Positions 1,963 through 8,357 of a DNA stretch of 47,971 nucleotides are shown in pieces. Position numbers and translations under genes: made by a program. Below the pieces are notes generated by a model, which worked only from the letters and a program-made list of their open reading frames with translations, did no database searches and was not told where the DNA came from. How positions within the stretch are numbered: the stretch's first letter is position 1; every line of letters begins with the position of its first letter. The DNA is from a virus (lineage: Duplodnaviria; Heunggongvirae; Uroviricota; Caudoviricetes): IMG/VR virus record IMGVR_UViG_2623620505_000002; one strand, given 5' to 3'.

Positions 1963-4434
1963 TTAAAAATCAGCCTGACTCGGGATCAGTTTTTGCCAGA
2001 TAGCTGAAACGTATTTTGCCTGGTAACGGGCGTCATCAAGTGCATTATGGCGCTCACCTTCGAATGGAATAGCCGTTCTGGCATCGAAGTCTATGGCTTT
2101 CCCCAGCTCAACGATTGTGCGTACATCGCGATCGTTGTAGTAACGCCACGGGCAGGGGATCCCCTGCCGTTCGTATGAACGGCGCAAAATCGTGTTGTCG
2201 AAGTTGGCTCCATTTCCCCAGACCTGAACAAAAAATTCACCGGAGTTTTCGTCGATAAATTCCCGCAATTGTAGCAGTGCATCATCTAACGGGATTTCAT
2301 CGGTCATAATGGCAGATTGCGCTTCGCGTGATTGCTTAAGCCACCATTTAATGGTGTCCCGATCAATGACTCCGCCAGCAGTTTCCAGATCGATAGTCTT
2401 ACTAAATTCCGGTCCCATATCTCCGGTTTGCGGATCGAAAAATATTGCACCTATTGAGATAATCGGGGCATCAGGATTTTTTCCCATGGTTTCAAGGTCG
2501 ATCATTAGATGGTCACACGTCCTGCTGGTGGATGTGATAACGCGATGACCGTTCACCGTAATTAAGGGATCTGCCGTCTCGCCAGTTTCACTATCGCTGG
2601 CGTGATCCTGAGCGCTGCCAGCATTCTCCTTGTGTGGATGTTCAGCGCCTTCCATTTTCTCCGAATCGTCTTCCTGAACTTCAACCTGGTTCTTGTCATC
2701 GAATGTTTCCTGGTATGTTGCGTCGCCCATCACTGCACCACAATCAGGGCAGTTGCCGCCACCGCTTTGACCGCAGGCGGTGCAGATCTTTTCCGGTTCC
2801 TGTTGCACTACTGGTTCAGGTTGTTTCGTTTCTGGCTCGTTTTGTTGCGTATTTGGGCTGTTTTGTTCCGCTTTCTGGTCGTTCTGTTCCGTTTCTTGCT
2901 GGTTCTGGTTCACAGAATCGCGGGTTTCAATCCCCTTCACCCATTTCGGATCATTCGGATCGCTAATCCCTGCAACAAATTCACCACGTGATACTGCAAG
3001 CAGTTCATCGGCGTCAGGCTGGCTGATATTGGCTGCCTGCATAATTTTGTTTACTTCGTCAGCGGTAACTTTTACCGGCCCTGGTTGTGCGGTCGTGTCA
3101 GATGCACCAGTATTTTGTTGTGAACCTGAGTATGTACCGTTTTTGCGGGCGAAATATTCTTCTTTCGTGATTTCAGTAGCCCCGGCAGCCAGTGCCTTAT
3201 CCAGACCAGAAAGTTTGTTTGCGCGACCGTATTTTTCGCCATCCTTGTCGGTGAAGAGGAAGTAGAACGGCCCCTCACGCTCTACAGATGGTTCGACTTC
3301 CACTTTGCATTCGGTTTTTTCGTTGTTCGGCATTGCCGTTTCCACTGCATCAGCTTCTGGTACTGGCGACGGGAGAGTATTAGTTGTGCTCTGATTTCTT
3401 CCTTCATCTTCAAACACGCCCTTTGTAGTCAGGTATTCAGTGATGTATTTGTTCAGCGCCACAGGATCTTTGTGAATGTCGATCGGACGCTCACGGACAA
3501 GGCCAAAAATAGTCTGACGGTCGTAGCGAACGGCATCGGGTTGTTTGCGCATTGATGCGGAAATGCGCTTCCAGTCTTCGCGATCTTTGTCGATAACTTC
3601 ATTTTTTGCCCAGCGATGGATGCTGCCGTCAATGTTTCCGGCATTAATATCGCCAGGCCACAGAGCGTAGGCCAGTTCTTCATCCAGCGTTTTCCATGTC
3701 TGCTTGTATTCGCGACGAATGGCGGCAGTGGCGGGGTTGATTTTTCCTGCTGAGTTTTCAGTGTGCTGCCGGTTGACTCTGGCGCGGGCAAGATCAACAA
3801 CAGACGTGTATTTCCCGGTTTCTTTGCGTTCACCTTCGCGACGTTTTTTCCAGATGCGCATCTCTGCCTGAATTTCGGGCCATTTGGCACCAGGCTTACA
3901 TTTATGCTTAACCCACCCGATGGCATGCAGCTTAAGCTCCGGATACATGGCGTTAACTTCTGGCATTTTCATCAACGCTTCAACGATATGTCCGTCGAAT
4001 GTTGCCATGTCTTCCTGCAACAATTCCTGCGCGCTAATCACCATATCAACGGTGATGTTTTCACATGTGTCGAACTTAACCATGACAGCGTTCTGTACTT
4101 CAGGGGCCAGCTTGTCAAAAGTGACGCTCATCGGATCTGATTCAGTCTCAACCGGGACAAAGGAAGCAGACTCCTCATCCCAGCGGTTTTCCTGCATATA
4201 TTCAGCATCCCAGGAATCGAGGGCAGGGCGGGGTATACCGGGTTTATCCTCGCAAACAAGAAATTTATAAGCGCAGTCCTGAGCAGCCGGATAATGTTCC
4301 AGGAATTGCCAGTGAAATTTTGCGCGGGCGCGACGTTCATCACCGGCTTCAATGGCAGTGGCTACAGCGACTGCACCTTCTTCCTTTATTGCCTGTTCGT
4401 CCGGAATGGCGGCGCAAATAAAGACTTTACTCAT
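1963..4434 (-). CDS. Large phage exonuclease (RecE/exodeoxyribonuclease VIII-like annotation class) with a C-terminal DEDDh 3'-5' exonuclease fold and an internal CxxC...CxxC zinc ribbon
   Basis: 823 aa; C-terminus carries DLETMG (Exo I) and HNALDDA (Exo III) motifs; CTACGQSGGGNCPDCG zinc-ribbon-like motif mid-protein; early-left position next to xis. Confidence 0.7.
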   Translation of the reverse strand: MSKVFICAAIPDEQAIKEEGAVAVATAIEAGDERRARAKFHWQFLEHYPAAQDCAYKFLVCEDKPGIPRPALDSWDAEYMQENRWDEESASFVPVETESDPMSVTFDKLAPEVQNAVMVKFDTCENITVDMVISAQELLQEDMATFDGHIVEALMKMPEVNAMYPELKLHAIGWVKHKCKPGAKWPEIQAEMRIWKKRREGERKETGKYTSVVDLARARVNRQHTENSAGKINPATAAIRREYKQTWKTLDEELAYALWPGDINAGNIDGSIHRWAKNEVIDKDREDWKRISASMRKQPDAVRYDRQTIFGLVRERPIDIHKDPVALNKYITEYLTTKGVFEDEGRNQSTTNTLPSPVPEADAVETAMPNNEKTECKVEVEPSVEREGPFYFLFTDKDGEKYGRANKLSGLDKALAAGATEITKEEYFARKNGTYSGSQQNTGASDTTAQPGPVKVTADEVNKIMQAANISQPDADELLAVSRGEFVAGISDPNDPKWVKGIETRDSVNQNQQETEQNDQKAEQNSPNTQQNEPETKQPEPVVQQEPEKICTACGQSGGGNCPDCGAVMGDATYQETFDDKNQVEVQEDDSEKMEGAEHPHKENAGSAQDHASDSETGETADPLITVNGHRVITSTSRTCDHLMIDLETMGKNPDAPIISIGAIFFDPQTGDMGPEFSKTIDLETAGGVIDRDTIKWWLKQSREAQSAIMTDEIPLDDALLQLREFIDENSGEFFVQVWGNGANFDNTILRRSYERQGIPCPWRYYNDRDVRTIVELGKAIDFDARTAIPFEGERHNALDDARYQAKYVSAIWQKLIPSQADF

Positions 4435-4526
4435 TTTGTTTTACCTCATTACAGATTTAAGGGTGAACAAATCCCTGCCATTGCTGGCATATAAGAATGA
4501 AATCGGATGTTTATTACGGAACTGTT

Positions 4527-4718
4527 TTAAAGACCTGCCGGGATTTCGTTATTGTCCATGCGAATAACTTTATCAACCGGATAACAGTTGCCGGGAATTT
4601 TCTGTTCCGCTGCGGCAGCCATGCATTCTTTCATTGAGTCATGTATACCAATAACAAGATCGACTGGTTCGCCTGTATTAAGAAAAACTGTCAGAACGAG
4701 TGCAAATGCTGTATTCAT
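4527..4718 (-). CDS. DUF1482-family small phage protein (YdaE-like)
   Basis: 63-aa product MNTAFALVLTVFLNTGEPVDLVIGIHDSMKECMAAAAEQKIPGNCYPVDKVIRMDNNEIPAGL from the internal Met of the 81-aa track ORF; family recalled from lambdoid prophages. Confidence 0.55.
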   Translation of the reverse strand: MNTAFALVLTVFLNTGEPVDLVIGIHDSMKECMAAAAEQKIPGNCYPVDKVIRMDNNEIPAGL

Positions 4719-4720
4719 TG

Positions 4721-4903
4721 TCAGCGTCCTTTTTGCATCAGGCGTAAACGGGCCAGCATTGAAACAATGCATATTTGATTTAATAGCTCCCGTTCGTGTT
4801 TTCTCTTATTAATGGCATCTTCAGTAAATACAGGGTTACTGATTCTGACACCAATTTCAAAACAACCTTCAGACGTATTAACGTTTGGTAATAACGTTTC
4901 CAT
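4721..4903 (-). CDS. Small early protein at the kil position (KilR-like candidate)
   Basis: 60-aa ORF whose stop sits 3 nt before the DUF1482 start; position matches kilR in Rac-type early-left operons; identity not verified. Confidence 0.4.
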   Translation of the reverse strand: METLLPNVNTSEGCFEIGVRISNPVFTEDAINKRKHERELLNQICIVSMLARLRLMQKGR

Positions 4904-5090
4904 TATCGCGTCCTCAACAATGAATTTTGTGATGCGGTGCCTGGTGCCTCCAGGTGACGTTAACCAGTTAACAATTAACGCCGGATACAGGGAAACCCAT
5001 AAACACCCGATACGGGGGAACTAATCGCTTTTTAACTGTTCCGCGTGCGCTTAGCCGCATTCACCGCATCACAAAATTCACTTTAAAAAG

Positions 5091-5128
5091 GGCGGACATC
5101 AGCCAGCAATTAAACTGATGCCGCCAAA
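5091..5128 (-). terminator. Candidate Rho-independent terminator for a leftward transcript inside a 0.7-kb region with no long ORF
   Basis: On the minus strand GGCGGCATCAG ... CTGATGTCCGCC hairpin followed by TTTTTAAA. Confidence 0.4.
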
Positions 5129-5447
5129 GGTCTCACACAAGCCTCAACATGGAGATGTTGTGGCGGGGTTGTCACTCAGGCGTATGGTCAACCTGACAAC
5201 CCGGTGCTACCAGTGGGGGTAAGGATAACCCCGCCATACTTACCGCCGCGCCATTTCGCGGAGTGCCACAACCGGAAGCGCACGGTCGAAGATACCGGCG
5301 ACACGCAACAGAGGGAGAAATGACTTCGCCGTGCGCTTTCGTGTTGTGTGCCTGCTTTTAACCACGTCAGGCGAGGTGGTTCCTGTCATTCCCCAACGAC
5401 AAGAAATCTGTATAATCTGGATATCCCCAACGATCCAAGGAAATCAT

Positions 5448-5594
5448 ATGACAGAGCAAAGAGCACAAGCAGGTGGTGGCAATTCGACACATAAAACAGT
5501 CTGGGATCACATACCAGAGAAAAACATTCGACCAAAACCATCTCCAGCTCCTTCGGAGGAGAGGGGGAACAGCAACAACCAAACAAGCAGGTGA
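5448..5594 (+). CDS. Candidate 48-aa ORF upstream of the SieB-like gene
   Basis: ATG at 5448 with AAGGAA RBS; perfect TATAAT at 5411-5416 upstream; may instead be a 5' leader. Confidence 0.25.
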   Translation: MTEQRAQAGGGNSTHKTVWDHIPEKNIRPKPSPAPSEERGNSNNQTSR

Positions 5595-5600
5595 TGATGT

Positions 5601-6047
5601 ATGGACCGGGATGATATTCTTGACAGAATTTTATATGGCTATTTTCTTGAGCAACTATTTTCTGTAGCGACTGGTCGTCTCGATAAACTTCTCTCAGTGG
5701 TGAGTATTATCCTCGGTTCATCTGTCATTGGCGGATTCATTCCGGAAATTTCTGGCGTTTTTATTGTTGTGATCGCAACCGTCCAAACGATTTATGGATT
5801 CGGACAAAAGTCAGGTAACGCCATGAGAAAATCCGCAGAATATTTGCAGCTTTTTGATGATGCAGAAAAATATTCTGATTCTGAATTGAAAATGCAGTTA
5901 AAAATTCTGGAAAAAACGGATGATCATATTTGGTCATCACTTAAAGATATTGCGATCTTAAAAACACAGATCAAAATAGGCGTTTCCATCGAACAACAAG
6001 AGAAGCTGCCCACAAAATCTAAATTGATGCGATTTCTTTGTGGTTAG
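5601..6047 (+). CDS. Two-helix membrane protein in the sieB position (superinfection-exclusion candidate)
   Basis: 148 aa; two adjacent hydrophobic helices (VVSIILGSSVIGGFIPEI, GVFIVVIATVQTIYGF) after a ~30-aa N-terminus; AT-rich; oriented opposite to the leftward early operon, as sieB is in Rac-type prophages. Confidence 0.5.
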   Translation: MDRDDILDRILYGYFLEQLFSVATGRLDKLLSVVSIILGSSVIGGFIPEISGVFIVVIATVQTIYGFGQKSGNAMRKSAEYLQLFDDAEKYSDSELKMQLKILEKTDDHIWSSLKDIAILKTQIKIGVSIEQQEKLPTKSKLMRFLCG

Positions 6048-6125
6048 GAATATCCAGAATGTTAAAGAGCATGCCGGAGATTTATCCGTGTCCGGCGCAT
6101 GTTCTCCACCTCACCCGTGGAGAAC

Positions 6126-6512
6126 TTAATGATTAATTGATATTTTATAGTTGGCTTCAACTTTCCCATCTGAAGTGGGATGCTTTAAATCACAGGAATT
6201 AATGTTGCACTCAGTAAAATGGTTTTTAAGGGGTTCTATTCGAATCCCTTTCTTTTCCATCAACAAACCAAACCCCTTGTTAATGATATCCATTAATTCC
6301 AGGAAGTATTTTTCAGAGGAATCATGCTTATCAGAGTGCTGCTTCTCTTCGTACAACCCGATAAAGGCACGGCGCACGTTACCGGATATATTATCTATGG
6401 TTTCTTTTTCTACGGTACTCAGGTCAAGAGTCGCCAATTGAGAACGAACTATATTCGCTGCCATTTCCTGGAAAGGTGTTGGTAAATCTTTAAATTCCAT
6501 CGTTAACCTCAT
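6126..6512 (-). CDS. Hypothetical protein, translationally coupled to the upstream small gene
   Basis: 128-aa ORF; start codon shares one base with the upstream stop (TGATG on the minus strand); no recognisable motif. Confidence 0.5.
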   Translation of the reverse strand: MRLTMEFKDLPTPFQEMAANIVRSQLATLDLSTVEKETIDNISGNVRRAFIGLYEEKQHSDKHDSSEKYFLELMDIINKGFGLLMEKKGIRIEPLKNHFTECNINSCDLKHPTSDGKVEANYKISINH

Positions 6513-6664
6513 CAGTCAGTATTTCTGGATAACCAGCGACGCGCGCTAGCTTCGGTTTTAAACGTTTTGCTTTTGGTATACGTCATCGCGGTGAACGTAC
6601 CGTCCTGGTTGGGAAACACGCCACATACCAGAGATTCGCTGTTGCCAAGATCGATAGTATCCAT
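6512..6664 (-). CDS. Small protein downstream of the repressor, YdfA/YdaF-like (DUF1391 class); longest ORF would start at 6742
   Basis: 50-aa product from the internal Met (MDTIDLGNSESLVCGVFPNQDGTFTAMTYTKSKTFKTEASARRWLSRNTD); size and position match the small genes that follow dicA/racR-type repressors; family name from memory. Confidence 0.45.
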   Translation of the reverse strand: MDTIDLGNSESLVCGVFPNQDGTFTAMTYTKSKTFKTEASARRWLSRNTD

Positions 6665-6835
6665 GTTGACCTCATTTCCCCTTAACGCCGGGGTAGCGGA
6701 ACAAAAACCTGCTGCATAGTTAAAGTTGAACCCTGCCGTCATGTTCTTACGCCTCGGGCTGGCTACTTAACCCCTGATCACTGCCTGGTAACTCGAAGTA
6801 TTGCCCGGCGTTCTGTGGGGCGGGGTGGGTTGGTA

Positions 6836-6849
6836 TGTTGTTAAGGTAA
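6836..6849. promoter_or_regulatory. GTAAC-N4-GTTAC palindrome (operator-like) between the cI terminator and the next leftward gene
   Basis: Perfect inverted repeat GGTAACaagaGTTACC; same half-sites as the two palindromes in the cI-cro intergenic region. Confidence 0.35.
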
Positions 6850-6902
6850 CAAGAGTTACCATCTGAGTCAATACAATGTTGCAAAAGGTACGTTTGAGGG
6901 CA

Positions 6903-6927
6903 TAAAAAACCCGCAATGAATGCGGGT
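6903..6927 (-). terminator. Rho-independent terminator just downstream of the repressor gene
   Basis: On the minus strand ACCCGCA ttcat TGCGGGT followed by TTTTTT, 7 nt after the cI stop codon. Confidence 0.6.
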
Positions 6928-6933
6928 TCTGAC

Positions 6934-7608
6934 TCAATCTAAGTATTGATGTATTTGTGAAACTTTACCTTTAATGGTGTAACCGCCATTCAGTTCGATG
7001 GGTTTGTAAAGCGGATTCAGTGACAACAGATAGATGTTTGGTCCGTCAATCGCAACTTTTTTTAGTGTTACGTTTGGCGTTCCTTCCAATTGGATTAAGA
7101 TTATTTTCCCCACCAGTTCTCTAATGTTACTTGAGCATGGTGTGATCAGCACGGTAGATCCGTCGGGGATGGTTGGGAGGCCGTTAGAGTTTGTCATCGC
7201 ATCTCCCTCAACATGCAATAAAAAAGAGTTTTCAGCGGTTTTTGTCATGACATCAACCCAATTCTTAATACCAGGAATCTCGGTTACTGGGCAACTCATA
7301 TCCCAATAACCAGCCTGTTCCCACGTTAAAACGGGCAACCGGGCGATGTTGTCACTAATGTAAAGGTACTGATTCAGACGCAGATCATCGGTTTTATCGT
7401 GACCGTCCTTTCCATAAAGAATCCATTCAGGAGATTTGGAAAGCAATTTTGACAGTAGATGTAAATTCTCACCGTCAGGTTTTGAAGAGCCATTTTCCCA
7501 TTTTGTTACGGATACACGAGATATGCCGATTGCTTTCGCAACCTGCTGTTGGGTTAATCCAACGTCTTTTCGACGATTCCGAATACGTTCGCTGATAGTG
7601 TTTTTCAT
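6934..7608 (-). CDS. cI: CI-type prophage repressor (N-terminal XRE helix-turn-helix, C-terminal LexA/S24 peptidase-like domain); alternative upstream starts at 7650 and 7707
   Basis: HTH segment LTQQQVAKAIGISRVSVTKWENG; C-terminal S24-like domain with HVEGDAM serine motif and downstream KK; divergent from cro; start at 7608 chosen because operator palindromes lie directly upstream. Confidence 0.8.
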   Translation of the reverse strand: MKNTISERIRNRRKDVGLTQQQVAKAIGISRVSVTKWENGSSKPDGENLHLLSKLLSKSPEWILYGKDGHDKTDDLRLNQYLYISDNIARLPVLTWEQAGYWDMSCPVTEIPGIKNWVDVMTKTAENSFLLHVEGDAMTNSNGLPTIPDGSTVLITPCSSNIRELVGKIILIQLEGTPNVTLKKVAIDGPNIYLLSLNPLYKPIELNGGYTIKGKVSQIHQYLD

Positions 7609-7670
7609 GTAACCAATGTTACCACCAAGTGATGTTACTATGGTTGACATTGCTATGTAACTATTGTTAC
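7609..7670. promoter_or_regulatory. Immunity-region operator/promoter segment with two GTAAC-N4-GTTAC palindromes (PRM/PR candidates)
   Basis: GTAACCAATGTTAC at 7609-7622 and GTAACTATTGTTAC at 7657-7670; TTGACA at 7644-7649; lies between divergent cI and cro. Confidence 0.45.
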
Positions 7671-7699
7671 CCTCCTGCTCGAAATAACAGGAGAGTTTT

Positions 7700-7915
7700 A
7701 TGTTCAAAGATGATGTTCTGCGCTATTTCAAAAAAAAACGACTAGTAGCTGAGGCTCTTGGAATTTCACATGTGGCTGTTGTGCGGTGGAAAGCAGTTAT
7801 TCCCAAACTTCGCGCAATGGAGCTGGATGAAATTACTAACGGTGAATTGAAATACAACCCAGAACTTTACAAGAAGCAGGATAGCACCTCGAACGAAGGA
7901 AAGAATGATTCATGA
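7700..7915 (+). CDS. cro: Cro-like DNA-binding regulator
   Basis: 71 aa, divergent from cI; HTH-like segment RLVAEALGISHVAVVRW; AGGAGAG RBS. Confidence 0.7.
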   Translation: MFKDDVLRYFKKKRLVAEALGISHVAVVRWKAVIPKLRAMELDEITNGELKYNPELYKKQDSTSNEGKNDS

Positions 7916-8337
7916 AAATCAAGCATGAACACATCCGCATGGCGATGAATGCCTGGGCGCATCCAGACGGCGAGAAAGTACCGGCTGCGAAAATTACCAA
8001 AGCGTATTTCGAACTGGGAATGACGTTCCCGGAACTGTATGACGACAGCCATCCGGAAGCCCTGGCTCGCAATACCCAGAAAATTTTCCGCTGGGTAGAG
8101 AAAGACACTCCTGATGCGGTTAAAAAAATTCAGGCGTTGTTACCGGCTATCGAAAAAGCAATGCCACCTCTGCTGGTGGCCCGAATGCGCAGCCACAGTT
8201 CAGCCTGGTTTCGGGAGCTGGTGGAGACGCGGGAACGACTGGTGAGAGACGCTGATGATTTTGTCGCAGTGGCGATCGCTGGTTTCAATCAGATGAATCG
8301 TGGCGGCCCAGCGGGAAATGCCGTGGTCGCGCATTGA
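7912..8337 (+). CDS. YdaT-like protein (cII-position regulator)
   Basis: 141 aa starting MKIKHEH; ATGA start/stop overlap with cro; position matches ydaT in Rac-type prophages; identity from memory. Confidence 0.55.
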   Translation: MKIKHEHIRMAMNAWAHPDGEKVPAAKITKAYFELGMTFPELYDDSHPEALARNTQKIFRWVEKDTPDAVKKIQALLPAIEKAMPPLLVARMRSHSSAWFRELVETRERLVRDADDFVAVAIAGFNQMNRGGPAGNAVVAH

Positions 8338-8357
8338 TAACGTGTTATGGGGGGGGG

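What the first reader, a model, noticed from the sequence alone, without database searches (positions are those of the whole stretch)
6836..7700. Three copies of a GTAAC-N4-GTTAC palindrome define the putative operator of this immunity region
Perfect 14-bp palindromes occur at 7609-7622 and 7657-7670 in the cI-cro intergenic region and at 6836-6849 downstream of the cI terminator. The third site suggests the repressor also controls the downstream small-gene pair or forms a loop analogous to OL-OR. The choice of cI start depends on this: 7608 places both intergenic sites upstream of a leaderless cI, while 7650 places one inside the coding sequence.
Basis: seen in the sequence. Interest (0 to 1): 0.4.

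Follow-up and report, generated by a model that had tools for sequence, protein, structure and literature searches.

The report
Repressor operators of a P22-like prophage switch
The three GTAAC-N4-GTTAC repeats are very probably the binding sites through which this E. coli prophage's repressor and Cro protein control the three early promoters, so this is an ordinary phage lysis/lysogeny switch of the P22 type with a DNA specificity I did not find described.

Summary
**The motif is real.** GTAAC-N4-GTTAC occurs exactly three times in 48 kb, against 0.04 expected. The sites are 7609-7622, 7657-7670 and 6846-6859. The finding's 6836-6849 is 10 bp off. Only the 5-bp arms are symmetric; the 4-bp centres are not.

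- The minus-strand gene 6934-7608 encodes a LexA-like repressor whose DNA-binding domain aligns without gaps to P22 C2. The plus-strand gene 7700-7915 is a P22-type Cro.
- Site 7657-7670 covers the -10 of PR.
- Site 6846-6859 covers the -10 of a leftward PL-type promoter just past the cI terminator.
- Site 7609-7622 abuts the cI ATG and contains a likely PRM -10.
- In 62 haplotypes the arms are almost invariant while the flanks vary about tenfold more.
- Across relatives the arm sequence tracks one recognition-helix residue. GTAAC sites go with TKWE (116/116) and GTAGG sites with TGWE (110/110). P22's TTAAG goes with SQWE, and Cro changes in parallel.

**The cI start is 7608, not the annotated 7650.** The 14-codon extension shows 0 synonymous and 7 non-synonymous changes.

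**Verdict.** This is a new member of a known kind. No binding, transcription start or looping data exist.

**Side observation.** The repressor's catalytic serine is alanine in 78 of 80 relatives.

The parts
6846..6859 (.). OL1: GTAAC-AAGA-GTTAC operator overlapping the spacer and -10 of the leftward PL-type promoter
   Evidence: Exact motif match. Conserved in 51 of 52 haplotypes of this region while the 5-6 bp next to it vary at almost every position. The same position, 6 bp after a TTGAC -35, holds in about 35 related lineages.
6866..6871 (-). PL -35 hexamer TTGACT (read on the minus strand)
   Evidence: Sequence. TTGAC(N) is conserved 6 bp upstream of OL1 in relatives. The strict sigma-70 scan did not call it.
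6843..6848 (-). PL -10 hexamer TACCTT preceded by TGT (extended -10), 17-bp spacer; inferred transcription start near 6836
   Evidence: Sequence. It is the same TGTTACCTT element that forms the PR -10 in Klebsiella-type relatives. Inferred, not mapped.
6878..6891 (.). Candidate weak OL2 (GTTGCAAAAGGTAC, 7 of 10 arm positions), centred 32 bp from OL1
   Evidence: Relatives have a second site 33-35 bp upstream of OL1, and annotated phage 21 OL1-OL2 are 35 bp apart. Three of its 14 columns vary. Low confidence.
6904..6929 (-). Intrinsic terminator of cI
   Evidence: Hairpin plus U-run, -16.5 kcal/mol, z = -3.9.
6934..7608 (-). cI repressor, 224 aa: HTH_3 domain plus Peptidase_S24 domain; recognition helix SRVSVTKWE (7495-7521); Ala137 (7198-7200) replaces the catalytic Ser
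   Evidence: Pfam E = 2e-16 and 9e-17. Ungapped match to the P22 C2 N-terminal domain, E = 2.5e-13. Start at 7608 supported. Ala at the lambda Ser149 position shown.
7609..7622 (.). OR3: GTAAC-CAAT-GTTAC operator directly abutting the cI ATG
   Evidence: Invariant except in 2 of 82 loci. The identical sequence GTAACATTGGTTAC|ATG occurs in Klebsiella and Pantoea phages whose repressors are only 42-44% identical.
7616..7621 (-). Candidate PRM -10 (TAACAT) inside OR3, 7 nt before the A of the cI ATG, implying a leaderless cI mRNA
   Evidence: A TAnnnT hexamer sits at the same place in all relatives examined (TAACAT, TAACGT, TAGGAT, TAAGAT). The spacer starts with AT in nearly all OR3-type sites (GT in ZF40) and in none of the OR1 or OL sites. 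Inferred; no start site data.
7634..7647 (.). Candidate weak OR2 (GTTACTATGGTTGA; 7 of 10 arm positions here, 6 of 10 in most relatives of this immunity type), overlapping the PR -35
   Evidence: It lies at the same offset (-39 from the ATG) as the middle site CAAAC-N4-GTTAC in 20 of 37 related lineages. Its conservation is confounded by the PR -35. Low confidence.
7644..7649 (+). PR -35 hexamer TTGACA
   Evidence: Sequence. Invariant in 23 intergenic haplotypes.
7657..7670 (.). OR1: GTAAC-TATT-GTTAC operator overlapping the spacer and -10 of PR
   Evidence: Invariant except in 1 of 82 loci. A site exactly 48 bp from OR3 is present in 37 of 37 lineages.
7668..7673 (+). PR -10 hexamer TACCCT preceded by TGT (extended -10), 18-bp spacer
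   Evidence: Sequence. Same layout as PL and as PR of relatives. Not called by the strict consensus scan.
7700..7915 (+). cro, P22_Cro family, recognition helix SHVAVVRWK
   Evidence: Pfam PF14549 E = 2.9e-16. PDB 1rzs (P22 Cro) E = 9e-12. The residue before Trp changes in step with cI across phages.
6512..6664 (-). DUF1391 gene, first gene downstream of PL/OL1
   Evidence: Pfam PF07151 E = 6e-27. RefSeq annotation.

Best explanation
The three repeats are the high-affinity operators of a P22/phage 21-type immunity switch. Dimers of the LexA-like repressor cI (6934-7608, minus strand) bind 5'-GTAAC-N4-GTTAC-3' through a P22 C2-like helix-turn-helix. Dimers of the P22-type Cro (7700-7915) probably bind the same sites. 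The 5-bp arms would be read in the major groove and the central 4 bp left uncontacted, as in P22.

OR1 (7657-7670) covers the spacer and -10 of PR (TTGACA-18-TACCCT), so bound repressor blocks rightward transcription of cro, ydaT and the replication genes. OL1 (6846-6859) covers the spacer and -10 of a leftward promoter (TTGACT-17-TACCTT) just past the cI terminator. Bound repressor there blocks transcription into the DUF1391 gene, the next small gene and probably the rest of the leftward early region. OR3 (7609-7622) abuts the cI ATG and contains the likely PRM -10 (TAACAT). Its occupancy, by Cro or by excess repressor, would shut off cI, whose mRNA would be leaderless as in lambda.

What is shown: the sites, their positions, their conservation and their covariation with the recognition helices. 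What is inferred: the promoter hexamers, the transcription starts, the order of site filling, the weak middle sites OR2 and OL2, and any cooperativity or looping.
For: **Statistics.** Three exact copies against 0.04 expected, all within 825 bp of a 48-kb window.

**Proteins.**
- cI has HTH_3 and Peptidase_S24 domains, and cro belongs to P22_Cro.
- The cI N-terminal domain aligns without gaps to the P22 C2 DNA-binding domain (2r1j, E = 2.5e-13).
- Cro matches P22 Cro (E = 9e-12).
- P22 repressor binds an 18-bp site with four uncontacted central base pairs (PMC4267663). That is the geometry seen here.

**Selection.**
- In 62 distinct haplotypes from 82 loci, arm columns have a mean minor-allele fraction of 0.003. 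Other non-coding columns have 0.03-0.04 and cI third codon positions 0.011.
- 4 of 30 arm columns vary against 64 of 189 other non-coding columns (p = 0.03).
- Positions right next to OL1 take 2-4 states.

**Architecture.**
- In 37 of 37 diverged lineages a second site lies 48 bp upstream of the ATG-abutting site.
- Downstream of cI most of those lineages (about 33) have terminator, a further site, TTGAC, 6 bp, then a site. The same holds in the ZF40, AH07 and Klebsiella phage records.
- The phage 21 record annotates OR, OL, pL and the terminator in the same order.

**Covariation.**
- A scan for GTAAC-N4-GTTAC|ATGAAA returns 116 of 116 cI-like ORFs with helix SRV(S/T)(V/I)TKWE, in 41 distinct N-terminal variants.
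- A scan for TGGTAGG-N4-CCTAC|ATG returns 110 of 110 with (N/S)RVT(V/I)TGWE, in 44 variants.
- P22/phage 21 (TTAAG) has SQWE. Morganella phage IME1369_02 (GTAAG) has TQWE. Phage vB_EcoM-689R6 (CTAAG) has GYWE.
- At the aligned position Cro has R with GTAAC, G or E with GTAGG, and Q with TTAAG and GTAAG.
Against: - There are no binding, footprint or transcript data for this repressor.
- The strict sigma-70 scan found no promoter in 6000-8400. Both -10 hexamers match TATAAT at only 3 of 6 positions and depend on an upstream TG.
- Only two strong sites at OR and one at OL were found, where P22, phage 21 and lambda have three each. The candidate middle sites have 3-4 mismatches.
- If transcription starts at the ATG, the middle site is centred near -32. 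That does not fit lambda-style activation from about -42.
- The close relatives used for the conservation test are 97-100% identical in cI, so some of the conservation reflects recent common descent.
- The motif-to-protein scans select homologous regions, so part of the association is shared ancestry.
Confidence: 0.85

Rival explanations
1. The third site (6846-6859) works mainly as a distal anchor for a repressor-mediated OL-OR DNA loop of about 0.76-0.81 kb that tightens repression at OR. Under this reading it is not primarily the operator of its own promoter.
For: The site lies 763 and 811 bp from the two OR sites. Lambda CI and CP-933P PaaR2 octamerise, and looping is proposed for both (PMC8630535). 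The PL -10 is a weak consensus match.
Against: The site sits in the same register relative to a conserved TTGAC -35 as OR1 does at PR, in this phage and in about 35 lineages. That is what promoter occlusion predicts. Looping would add to direct repression, not replace it. Nothing is known about oligomerisation of this repressor.
Confidence: 0.15
2. cI starts at the annotated ATG 7650 and is 238 aa long. Site 7609-7622 would then lie inside the coding sequence and act, if at all, as an intragenic roadblock.
For: RefSeq/PGAP annotates this start. The frame from 7650 stays open in all 62 haplotypes.
Against: The 14 extra codons show 0 synonymous and 7 non-synonymous changes, against 39 and 17 in the cI body (p = 6e-4). 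The ATG at 7650 overlaps the invariant PR -35, which explains why it is conserved. In 27 of 39 related lineages an in-frame stop leaves the operator-abutting ATG as the only start. Homologues, including P22 C2, align from residues 1-5 of the short form.
Confidence: 0.07
3. The repeats are bound by another factor and not by cI. Candidates are Cro alone, YdaT, or a host CRP/FNR-type regulator, since HcpR2 regulators have the predicted consensus GTAACnnnnGTTAC.
For: The only literature hit for the consensus is the predicted HcpR2 motif (PMC1274295). Cro's helix also tracks the motif.
Against: HcpR2 belongs to other bacterial groups and to hcp promoters. The structurally characterised homologue of the window's YdaT recognises TTGATT-N6-AATCAA (PMC9986795), and a separate match to that motif exists at 7905-7922. 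The cI helix residue tracks the half-site in 226 of 226 ORFs. The sites always flank cI.
Confidence: 0.04
4. The repeats are conserved only as parts of duplicated promoter elements (the TGTTACC extended -10), with no protein recognition of the dyad.
For: GTTAC overlaps the TGT-TAC of the proposed -10 at both PR and PL.
Against: The distal arm (GTAAC), which is not part of a -10 at PR or PL, is conserved as strongly as the proximal arm. The arm sequence changes to GTAGG/CCTAC or TTAAG/CTTAA in step with the repressor helix.
Confidence: 0.03

Closest known systems
Immunity region (immC) of Salmonella phage P22 and coliphage 21: C2 repressor, Cro, OR1-3, OL1-3
   Same: - The repressor has a homologous helix-turn-helix domain (ungapped, E = 2.5e-13) and an S24 C-terminal domain, and Cro belongs to the P22_Cro family.
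- The operators are dyads with a 4-bp centre.
- One operator abuts the repressor ATG, one covers the PR -10 and one covers the PL -10 just past the repressor terminator.
- The gene and site order matches the annotated phage 21 record.
   Different: - The half-site is GTAAC where P22 has TTAAG, and helix 3 is SRVSVTKWE where P22 has SNVAISQWE.
- Only 2 + 1 strong sites were found where P22 has 3 + 3.
- There is no N gene or nut site after PL; a DUF1391 gene follows a 180-nt conserved leader.
- The cII position is occupied by a YdaT protein.
- The catalytic Ser is replaced by Ala.
Pectobacterium phage ZF40, Pantoea phage AH07 and Klebsiella phage ST101-KPC2phi6.3 immunity regions (sequenced; I found no description of their operators)
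   Same: - They share the TKWE recognition helix and the same GTAAC-N4-G(T/G)TAC sites.
- The 48-bp OR1-OR3 spacing is the same, OR3 abuts the ATG (identical GTAACATTGGTTAC|ATG in two of them), and OL1 lies 6 bp after TTGAC.
   Different: - Their repressors are only 42-44% identical to this one.
- They keep the catalytic Ser (GESM).
- Most have clearer middle (OR2) and second (OL2) sites.
- Most of their OR1 and OL sites use GGTAC as one arm.
Phage lambda cI/Cro switch (OR1-3, OL1-3, PRM, PR, PL, leaderless cI)
   Same: Divergent cI and cro genes, operators overlapping PR and PL, PL lying beyond the cI transcription unit, an S24-type repressor (PDB 3bdn, E = 1e-13), and a probable leaderless cI message.
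   Different: Lambda uses 17-bp operators of unrelated sequence. Lambda OR3 ends about 10 bp before the ATG, whereas OR3 here abuts it. The Cro fold family differs. Activation of PRM from OR2 is not supported by the geometry here.
CP-933P cryptic prophage switch of E. coli O157:H7 (PaaR2, YdaS, YdaT; PMC8630535, PMC9986795)
   Same: YdaT is nearly the same protein (PDB 8bt1, E = 9e-81). A TTGATT-N6-AATCAA-like site sits at the junction of the Cro-equivalent gene and ydaT. That system has experimentally shown PR, PRM and PL with a leaderless repressor gene.
   Different: The repressor and Cro are unrelated types, PaaR2 and YdaS. The operator consensus is different (18-bp repeats with half-site GTTTAGTAA). 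A toxin-antitoxin pair follows the repressor there and is absent here.

Membership tests
P22/phage 21-type lambdoid immunity region | Repressor with a Cro/C1-type helix-turn-helix N-terminal domain homologous to P22 C2, plus a LexA-like S24 C-terminal domain | tested here: met
   Pfam HTH_3 E = 2e-16 and Peptidase_S24 E = 9e-17. The P22 C2 N-terminal domain structures are the best PDB match, ungapped over residues 5-66.
P22/phage 21-type lambdoid immunity region | Divergently transcribed Cro of the P22_Cro family | tested here: met
   PF14549 E = 2.9e-16. PDB 1rzs E = 9e-12.
P22/phage 21-type lambdoid immunity region | Dyad-symmetric operators with a 4-bp central spacer, overlapping PR and PL and adjoining the repressor start | tested here: met
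   Three 5-N4-5 sites at those positions. The layout matches the annotated phage 21 operators.
P22/phage 21-type lambdoid immunity region | Three operators at OR and three at OL | tested here: inconclusive
   Only 2 + 1 strong sites were found. The candidate weak OR2 (7634-7647) and OL2 (6878-6891) match 7 of 10 arm positions, at offsets that correspond to sites in relatives.
P22/phage 21-type lambdoid immunity region | Repressor and Cro physically bind these operators | not testable with these tools
   Only indirect evidence: half-site and recognition-helix covariation in 226 of 226 ORFs and purifying selection on the arms.
P22/phage 21-type lambdoid immunity region | RecA-stimulated self-cleavage by a Ser/Lys dyad (SOS inducibility) | tested here: not met
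   Ala137 aligns with lambda Ser149 in the G-x-S-M motif. The Lys and the Ala-Gly site are present. 78 of 80 relatives have Ala. This is a sequence prediction only.
Leaderless cI transcribed from PRM (as in lambda and CP-933P paaR2) | The transcript starts at or next to the A of the initiation codon, with no Shine-Dalgarno sequence | not testable with these tools
   The sequence is consistent. The operator fills the 14 bp before the ATG, and a TAACAT hexamer lies 7 nt upstream, conserved as TAnnnT in relatives. 5' end mapping is needed.
CP-933P/Rac-type YdaS-YdaT switch | PaaR2/RacR-type repressor and YdaS-type Cro with their operator repeats | tested here: not met
   cI is LexA-like. Cro fits P22_Cro far better than YdaS_toxin, which scores 18.5 bits, below its cut-off of 30. 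The operator sequence is different.
CP-933P/Rac-type YdaS-YdaT switch | YdaT (CII equivalent) with its TTGATT-N6-AATCAA site at the end of the Cro-equivalent gene | tested here: met
   YdaT matches 8bt1 with E = 9e-81. ATGATTCATGAAAATCAA at 7905-7922 has one mismatch and is the only match in the window. The position is as described in PMC9986795.

The most novel reading that the evidence does not exclude
This immunity module, present in about 12% of complete E. coli genomes, may be a locked switch. The repressor has lost its self-cleavage nucleophile (Ser to Ala in 78 of 80 relatives), yet the three operators and the repressor stay under strong purifying selection. The host would then be keeping a non-inducible repressor/operator set as a permanent silencer of the leftward dicB-containing region and of the replication genes, and as superinfection immunity. 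With only two strong OR sites and one strong OL site, it may work without lambda-style cooperative OR1-OR2 binding.
Probability: 0.25. Interest if true: 0.45.

Novelty: new member of a known kind. Interest (0 to 1): 0.25.

Why it matters
- **Annotation.** The result gives a usable operator assignment (GTAAC-N4-GTTAC; OR1, OR3, OL1; PR, PL, PRM) for an immunity type that has no close relative among sequenced phages (at most 44% repressor identity) yet sits in 665 of 5,426 complete E. coli genomes.
- **Start codon.** It corrects the repressor start that RefSeq assigns.
- **Recognition code.** It yields a simple helix-to-half-site correspondence in the P22 C2 family: K goes with GTAAC, G with GTAGG and Q with (T/G)TAAG. 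This could be used to predict immunity groups from sequence.
- **Scope.** It does not change how such switches are understood. The predicted loss of self-cleavage is the one feature that might repay an experiment.

Tried and rejected
- **Species-representative genomes.** A scan with the cI protein gave only two irrelevant weak hits.
- **Promoter and terminator scan.** The consensus scan called no promoter in the region and missed the cI terminator. The terminator was confirmed by folding. The promoters rest on comparative layout only.
- **Known RNA families.** Rfam at gathering threshold (3500-9000) and at permissive threshold (6400-7000) found nothing credible. In particular there is no DicF and nothing for the PL leader.
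- **PL leader.** It does not fold better than shuffled sequence (z = -0.1). I dropped the idea that it is a structured antitermination RNA, for lack of evidence.
- **Further copies in the prophage.** None was found. The one-mismatch site at 10496-10509 is inside a gene and fits chance.
- **Literature.** A search for the motif returned only the unrelated HcpR2 consensus. Papers on ZF40 concern Aca2, not cI.
- **Middle site.** The window's GTTAC at 7634-7638 first looked like a half-site. Most relatives have GTTGC there, so the middle site is reported only as a weak candidate.
- **LexA box.** A search for one that might control an antirepressor found nothing convincing.
Full report
**1. What is in the sequence**

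A search for GTAACNNNNGTTAC finds three exact matches in the 47,971-base window: 6846-6859, 7609-7622 and 7657-7670. The chance expectation is 0.04, and none of 100 shuffles reached three. The finding's first coordinate, 6836-6849, is 10 bp off; that stretch reads TGTTGTTAAGGTAA.

Only the 5-bp arms are symmetric. The centres are AAGA, CAAT and TATT. Relaxing the pattern adds nothing convincing elsewhere in the prophage.

The window is 100% identical to a prophage of E. coli strain VG12A2. The 2.2-kb immunity region is present at 80% coverage or more in 665 of 5,426 complete E. coli genomes.

**2. Genes around the sites**

- Minus strand, 6934-7608: a 224-aa protein with HTH_3 and Peptidase_S24 domains.
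- Plus strand, 7700-7915: a P22_Cro-family protein.
- Plus strand, 7912-8337: a YdaT-family protein, followed by replication genes.
- Downstream of cI on the minus strand: a strong intrinsic terminator at 6904-6929 (-16.5 kcal/mol, z = -3.9), then the third site, then a leader of about 180 nt and a DUF1391 gene (6512-6664).

The best solved-structure matches are P22 C2 for the cI N-terminal domain (ungapped, E = 2.5e-13), lambda cI for the C-terminal domain, and P22 Cro for Cro. No sequenced phage has a repressor more than 44% identical.

**3. Position relative to promoters**

- **PR.** On the plus strand, TTGACA (7644-7649) is followed after 18 bp by TGT-TACCCT (-10 at 7668-7673). Site 7657-7670 covers the spacer and the start of the -10.
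- **PL.** On the minus strand, TTGACT (6871-6866) is followed after 17 bp by TGT-TACCTT (-10 at 6848-6843). Site 6859-6846 occupies the same register. This is the layout of a PL promoter with its OL1 operator, pointing at the DUF1391 gene.
- **PRM.** The third site ends at the base before the cI ATG (7608). It contains TAACAT (7621-7616), 7 nt upstream of the A.

The strict sigma-70 scan called none of these. Both -10 hexamers match the consensus at only 3 of 6 positions and rely on the TG. The promoter assignments therefore rest on comparison, not on consensus score.

**4. Conservation**

A scan of IMG/VR gave 80 loci with 97-100% identical repressors. Together with the window and one RefSeq genome they make 62 distinct haplotypes.

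| Column class | Variable columns | Mean minor-allele fraction |
|---|---|---|
| Operator arms | 4 of 30 | 0.003 |
| Other non-coding | 64 of 189 | 0.03-0.04 |
| cI third codon positions | 36 of 224 | 0.011 |

The difference in variable columns between arms and other non-coding positions gives Fisher p = 0.03. The positions between the PL -35 and OL1 take 2-4 states, yet OL1 is intact in 51 of 52 haplotypes. At OL1 the changes in the centre are confined to its first base.

Natural exceptions exist. L013 carries one change in OR1, L078 and L079 carry one change in OR3, and L081 has a degraded OL1.

**5. Start codon**

RefSeq starts cI at 7650. Four results favour 7608.

- The 14 extra codons show 0 synonymous and 7 non-synonymous differences, against 39 and 17 in the rest of cI (p = 6e-4).
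- The 7650 ATG overlaps the invariant PR -35, which explains why it is kept.
- Homologues align from residues 1-5 of the short form.
- In a DNA-first scan, 119 of 120 contigs carrying GTAAC-N4-GTTAC|ATGAAA encode a cI-like protein starting at that ATG. In 27 of 39 distinct lineages an in-frame stop rules out any longer form.

So both intergenic sites lie upstream of cI, and there is no room for a Shine-Dalgarno sequence. A leaderless PRM message, as shown for lambda cI and for paaR2 of CP-933P (PMC8630535), is the natural reading. It remains untested.

**6. Comparison with relatives**

| Phage(s) | Site abutting the cI start | cI helix 3 | Cro helix |
|---|---|---|---|
| This window | GTAACATTGGTTAC\|ATG | SRVSVTKWE | SHVAVVRWK |
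| ZF40 | GTAACGTTAGTTAC\|ATG | SRVTITKWE | KHPAVCRWG |
| AH07, Klebsiella ST101-KPC2phi6.3 | GTAACATTGGTTAC\|ATG | SRVSVTKWE | SHPAVCRWG |
| YeP1, mEp390, Lys8385Vzw | GTAGG-N4-CCTAC\|ATG | (S/N)RVTVTGWE | ..SGW.. or ..SEW.. |
| P22 / phage 21 | TTAAG-N4-CTTAA, 2 bp before the ATG | SNVAISQWE | SDAAVSQWK |
| Morganella IME1369_02 | GTAAG-N4-CTTAC, 21 bp before the ATG (Shine-Dalgarno leader) | SASAVTQWE | SHSAVCQWV |
| vB_EcoM-689R6 | CTAAG-N4-CTTAG, about 23 bp before the ATG | SDVAVGYWE | different type |

Sources.

ZF40 has a second perfect site 48 bp away, as here. ZF40 also has an OL site 6 bp after TTGACA. The phage 21 record annotates OR, OL, pL and the terminator in the same order as found here.

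At scale, the GTAAC scan gave 116 of 116 TKWE helices in 41 N-terminal variants. A control scan with TGGTAGG-N4-CCTAC|ATG gave 110 of 110 TGWE helices in 44 variants. In both classes a second site lies 48 (or 47) bp upstream in every lineage. Downstream of cI most of the 37 lineages (about 33) show terminator, a second site, 8-9 bp, TTGAC, 6 bp, then OL1.

The residue before the conserved Trp corresponds to Gln37 of P22 C2. It tracks the inner bases of the half-site in both cI and Cro. That is what is expected if both proteins read these sites.

P22 repressor is known to bind an 18-bp site and to leave the central 4 bp uncontacted (PMC4267663).

**7. Weak sites**

At the offsets where relatives have a middle OR site (-39 from the ATG, in 20 of 37 lineages) and a second OL site (33-35 bp from OL1), the window has GTTACTATGGTTGA (7634-7647) and GTTGCAAAAGGTAC (6878-6891). 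Each matches 7 of 10 arm positions. Most haplotypes of this immunity type match the middle site at only 6 of 10. I report both as candidates only.

If transcription of cI starts at the ATG, the middle site is centred near -32. That does not fit lambda-type activation of PRM.

**8. Mechanism proposed**

Repressor dimers at OR1 and OL1 occlude PR and PL. OR3 overlaps the PRM -10 and start site and gives negative autoregulation, and it is also the target through which Cro would shut off cI.

- Shown: the sites, their placement, selection on them and covariation with the recognition helices.
- Inferred: the hexamers, the transcription starts, the order of filling and cooperativity.
- Open: OL-OR looping over about 0.8 kb.

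**9. What is known and what is new**

This is the P22/phage 21 kind of lambdoid immunity region with a different operator specificity. It is joined to a YdaT-type CII equivalent nearly identical to that of CP-933P (8bt1, E = 9e-81).

I found no description of this operator. The only literature hit for the consensus is the unrelated HcpR2 motif. The library searched is incomplete.

I classify it as a new member of a known kind, of low to moderate interest.

**10. Other observations**

- **Catalytic serine.** The repressor's G-x-S-M motif reads GDAM. Ala137 aligns with lambda Ser149. 78 of 80 close relatives share the Ala, and only L078 and L079 keep Ser. This predicts a repressor that cannot cleave itself. 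No convincing LexA box for an antirepressor was found in the window.
- **YdaT site.** ATGATTCATGAAAATCAA (7905-7922) at the cro/ydaT junction matches the footprinted YdaT site of CP-933P with one mismatch, in the same position.
- **PL leader.** It is strongly conserved and travels with other immunity types. It shows no known family and no unusual folding.

Noticed in passing
window 7198-7200 (minus strand; cI residue 137): The catalytic serine of the S24 self-cleavage domain (G-x-S-M; lambda Ser149) is alanine (GDAM). The Ala-Gly cleavage site (residues 99-100) and the lysine (183/184) are kept. 78 of 80 close relatives share the Ala, two (L078, L079) keep Ser, and all more distant relatives have Ser. 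This predicts a repressor that cannot cleave itself, so a prophage not inducible by the classical SOS route.
   Followed up: partly
window 7905-7922: ATGATTCATGAAAATCAA has one mismatch to the footprinted YdaT operator TTGATT-N6-AATCAA of CP-933P. It is the only match in the window and sits at the cro/ydaT junction, as in CP-933P. The window's YdaT is nearly identical to the crystallised one (8bt1, E = 9e-81). It is a likely YdaT site of a PRE-type promoter reading back into cI.
   Followed up: partly
window 6660-6838 (minus strand): The roughly 180-nt leader between the PL-type promoter and the DUF1391 gene is very strongly conserved. It persists where the downstream gene differs, and it is found next to other immunity regions in about 15 E. 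coli phages. A core GTAGCC-N-GCCCGAGGCGTAAGAA is shared with the PL leaders of AH07, ZF40 and YeP1. There is no Rfam match and folding is no better than shuffles (z = -0.1). Function unknown.
   Followed up: partly
window 6934-7650 (RefSeq CDS WP_040081872.1): RefSeq/PGAP starts the repressor at 7650, 14 codons upstream of the start supported here. That places one operator and the PR -35 inside the annotated coding sequence. The same problem affects the annotated cI of ZF40 (27 extra codons, overlapping cro) and of AH07 (8 extra codons).
   Followed up: yes
L013, L078/L079, L081 (IMG/VR relatives): Natural operator variants exist. OR1 reads GTAACAATAATTAC in L013. OR3 reads GTAACATTGATTAC in L078 and L079, the same two loci that keep the catalytic Ser. 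OL1 is degraded to GTAACTCCTATCAC in L081. They could serve as ready-made operator mutants.
   Followed up: no
window about 12837-14033: An IS110-family element (ISEc20 transposase) is inserted in the early right region of the prophage, so the prophage may be defective.
   Followed up: no
window 10496-10509: GTAAATTTCGTTAC, a single one-mismatch copy of the motif, lies inside the DUF1627 gene. It is consistent with chance and not associated with a promoter.
   Followed up: partly
window 4721-4903 and 3500-9000: The leftward region carries dicB and DUF1482 genes as in the Qin and Rac prophages, but no DicF sRNA was detected by Rfam. A plus-strand 148-aa ORF (5601-6047) lies convergent to the PL transcription unit.
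   Followed up: partly
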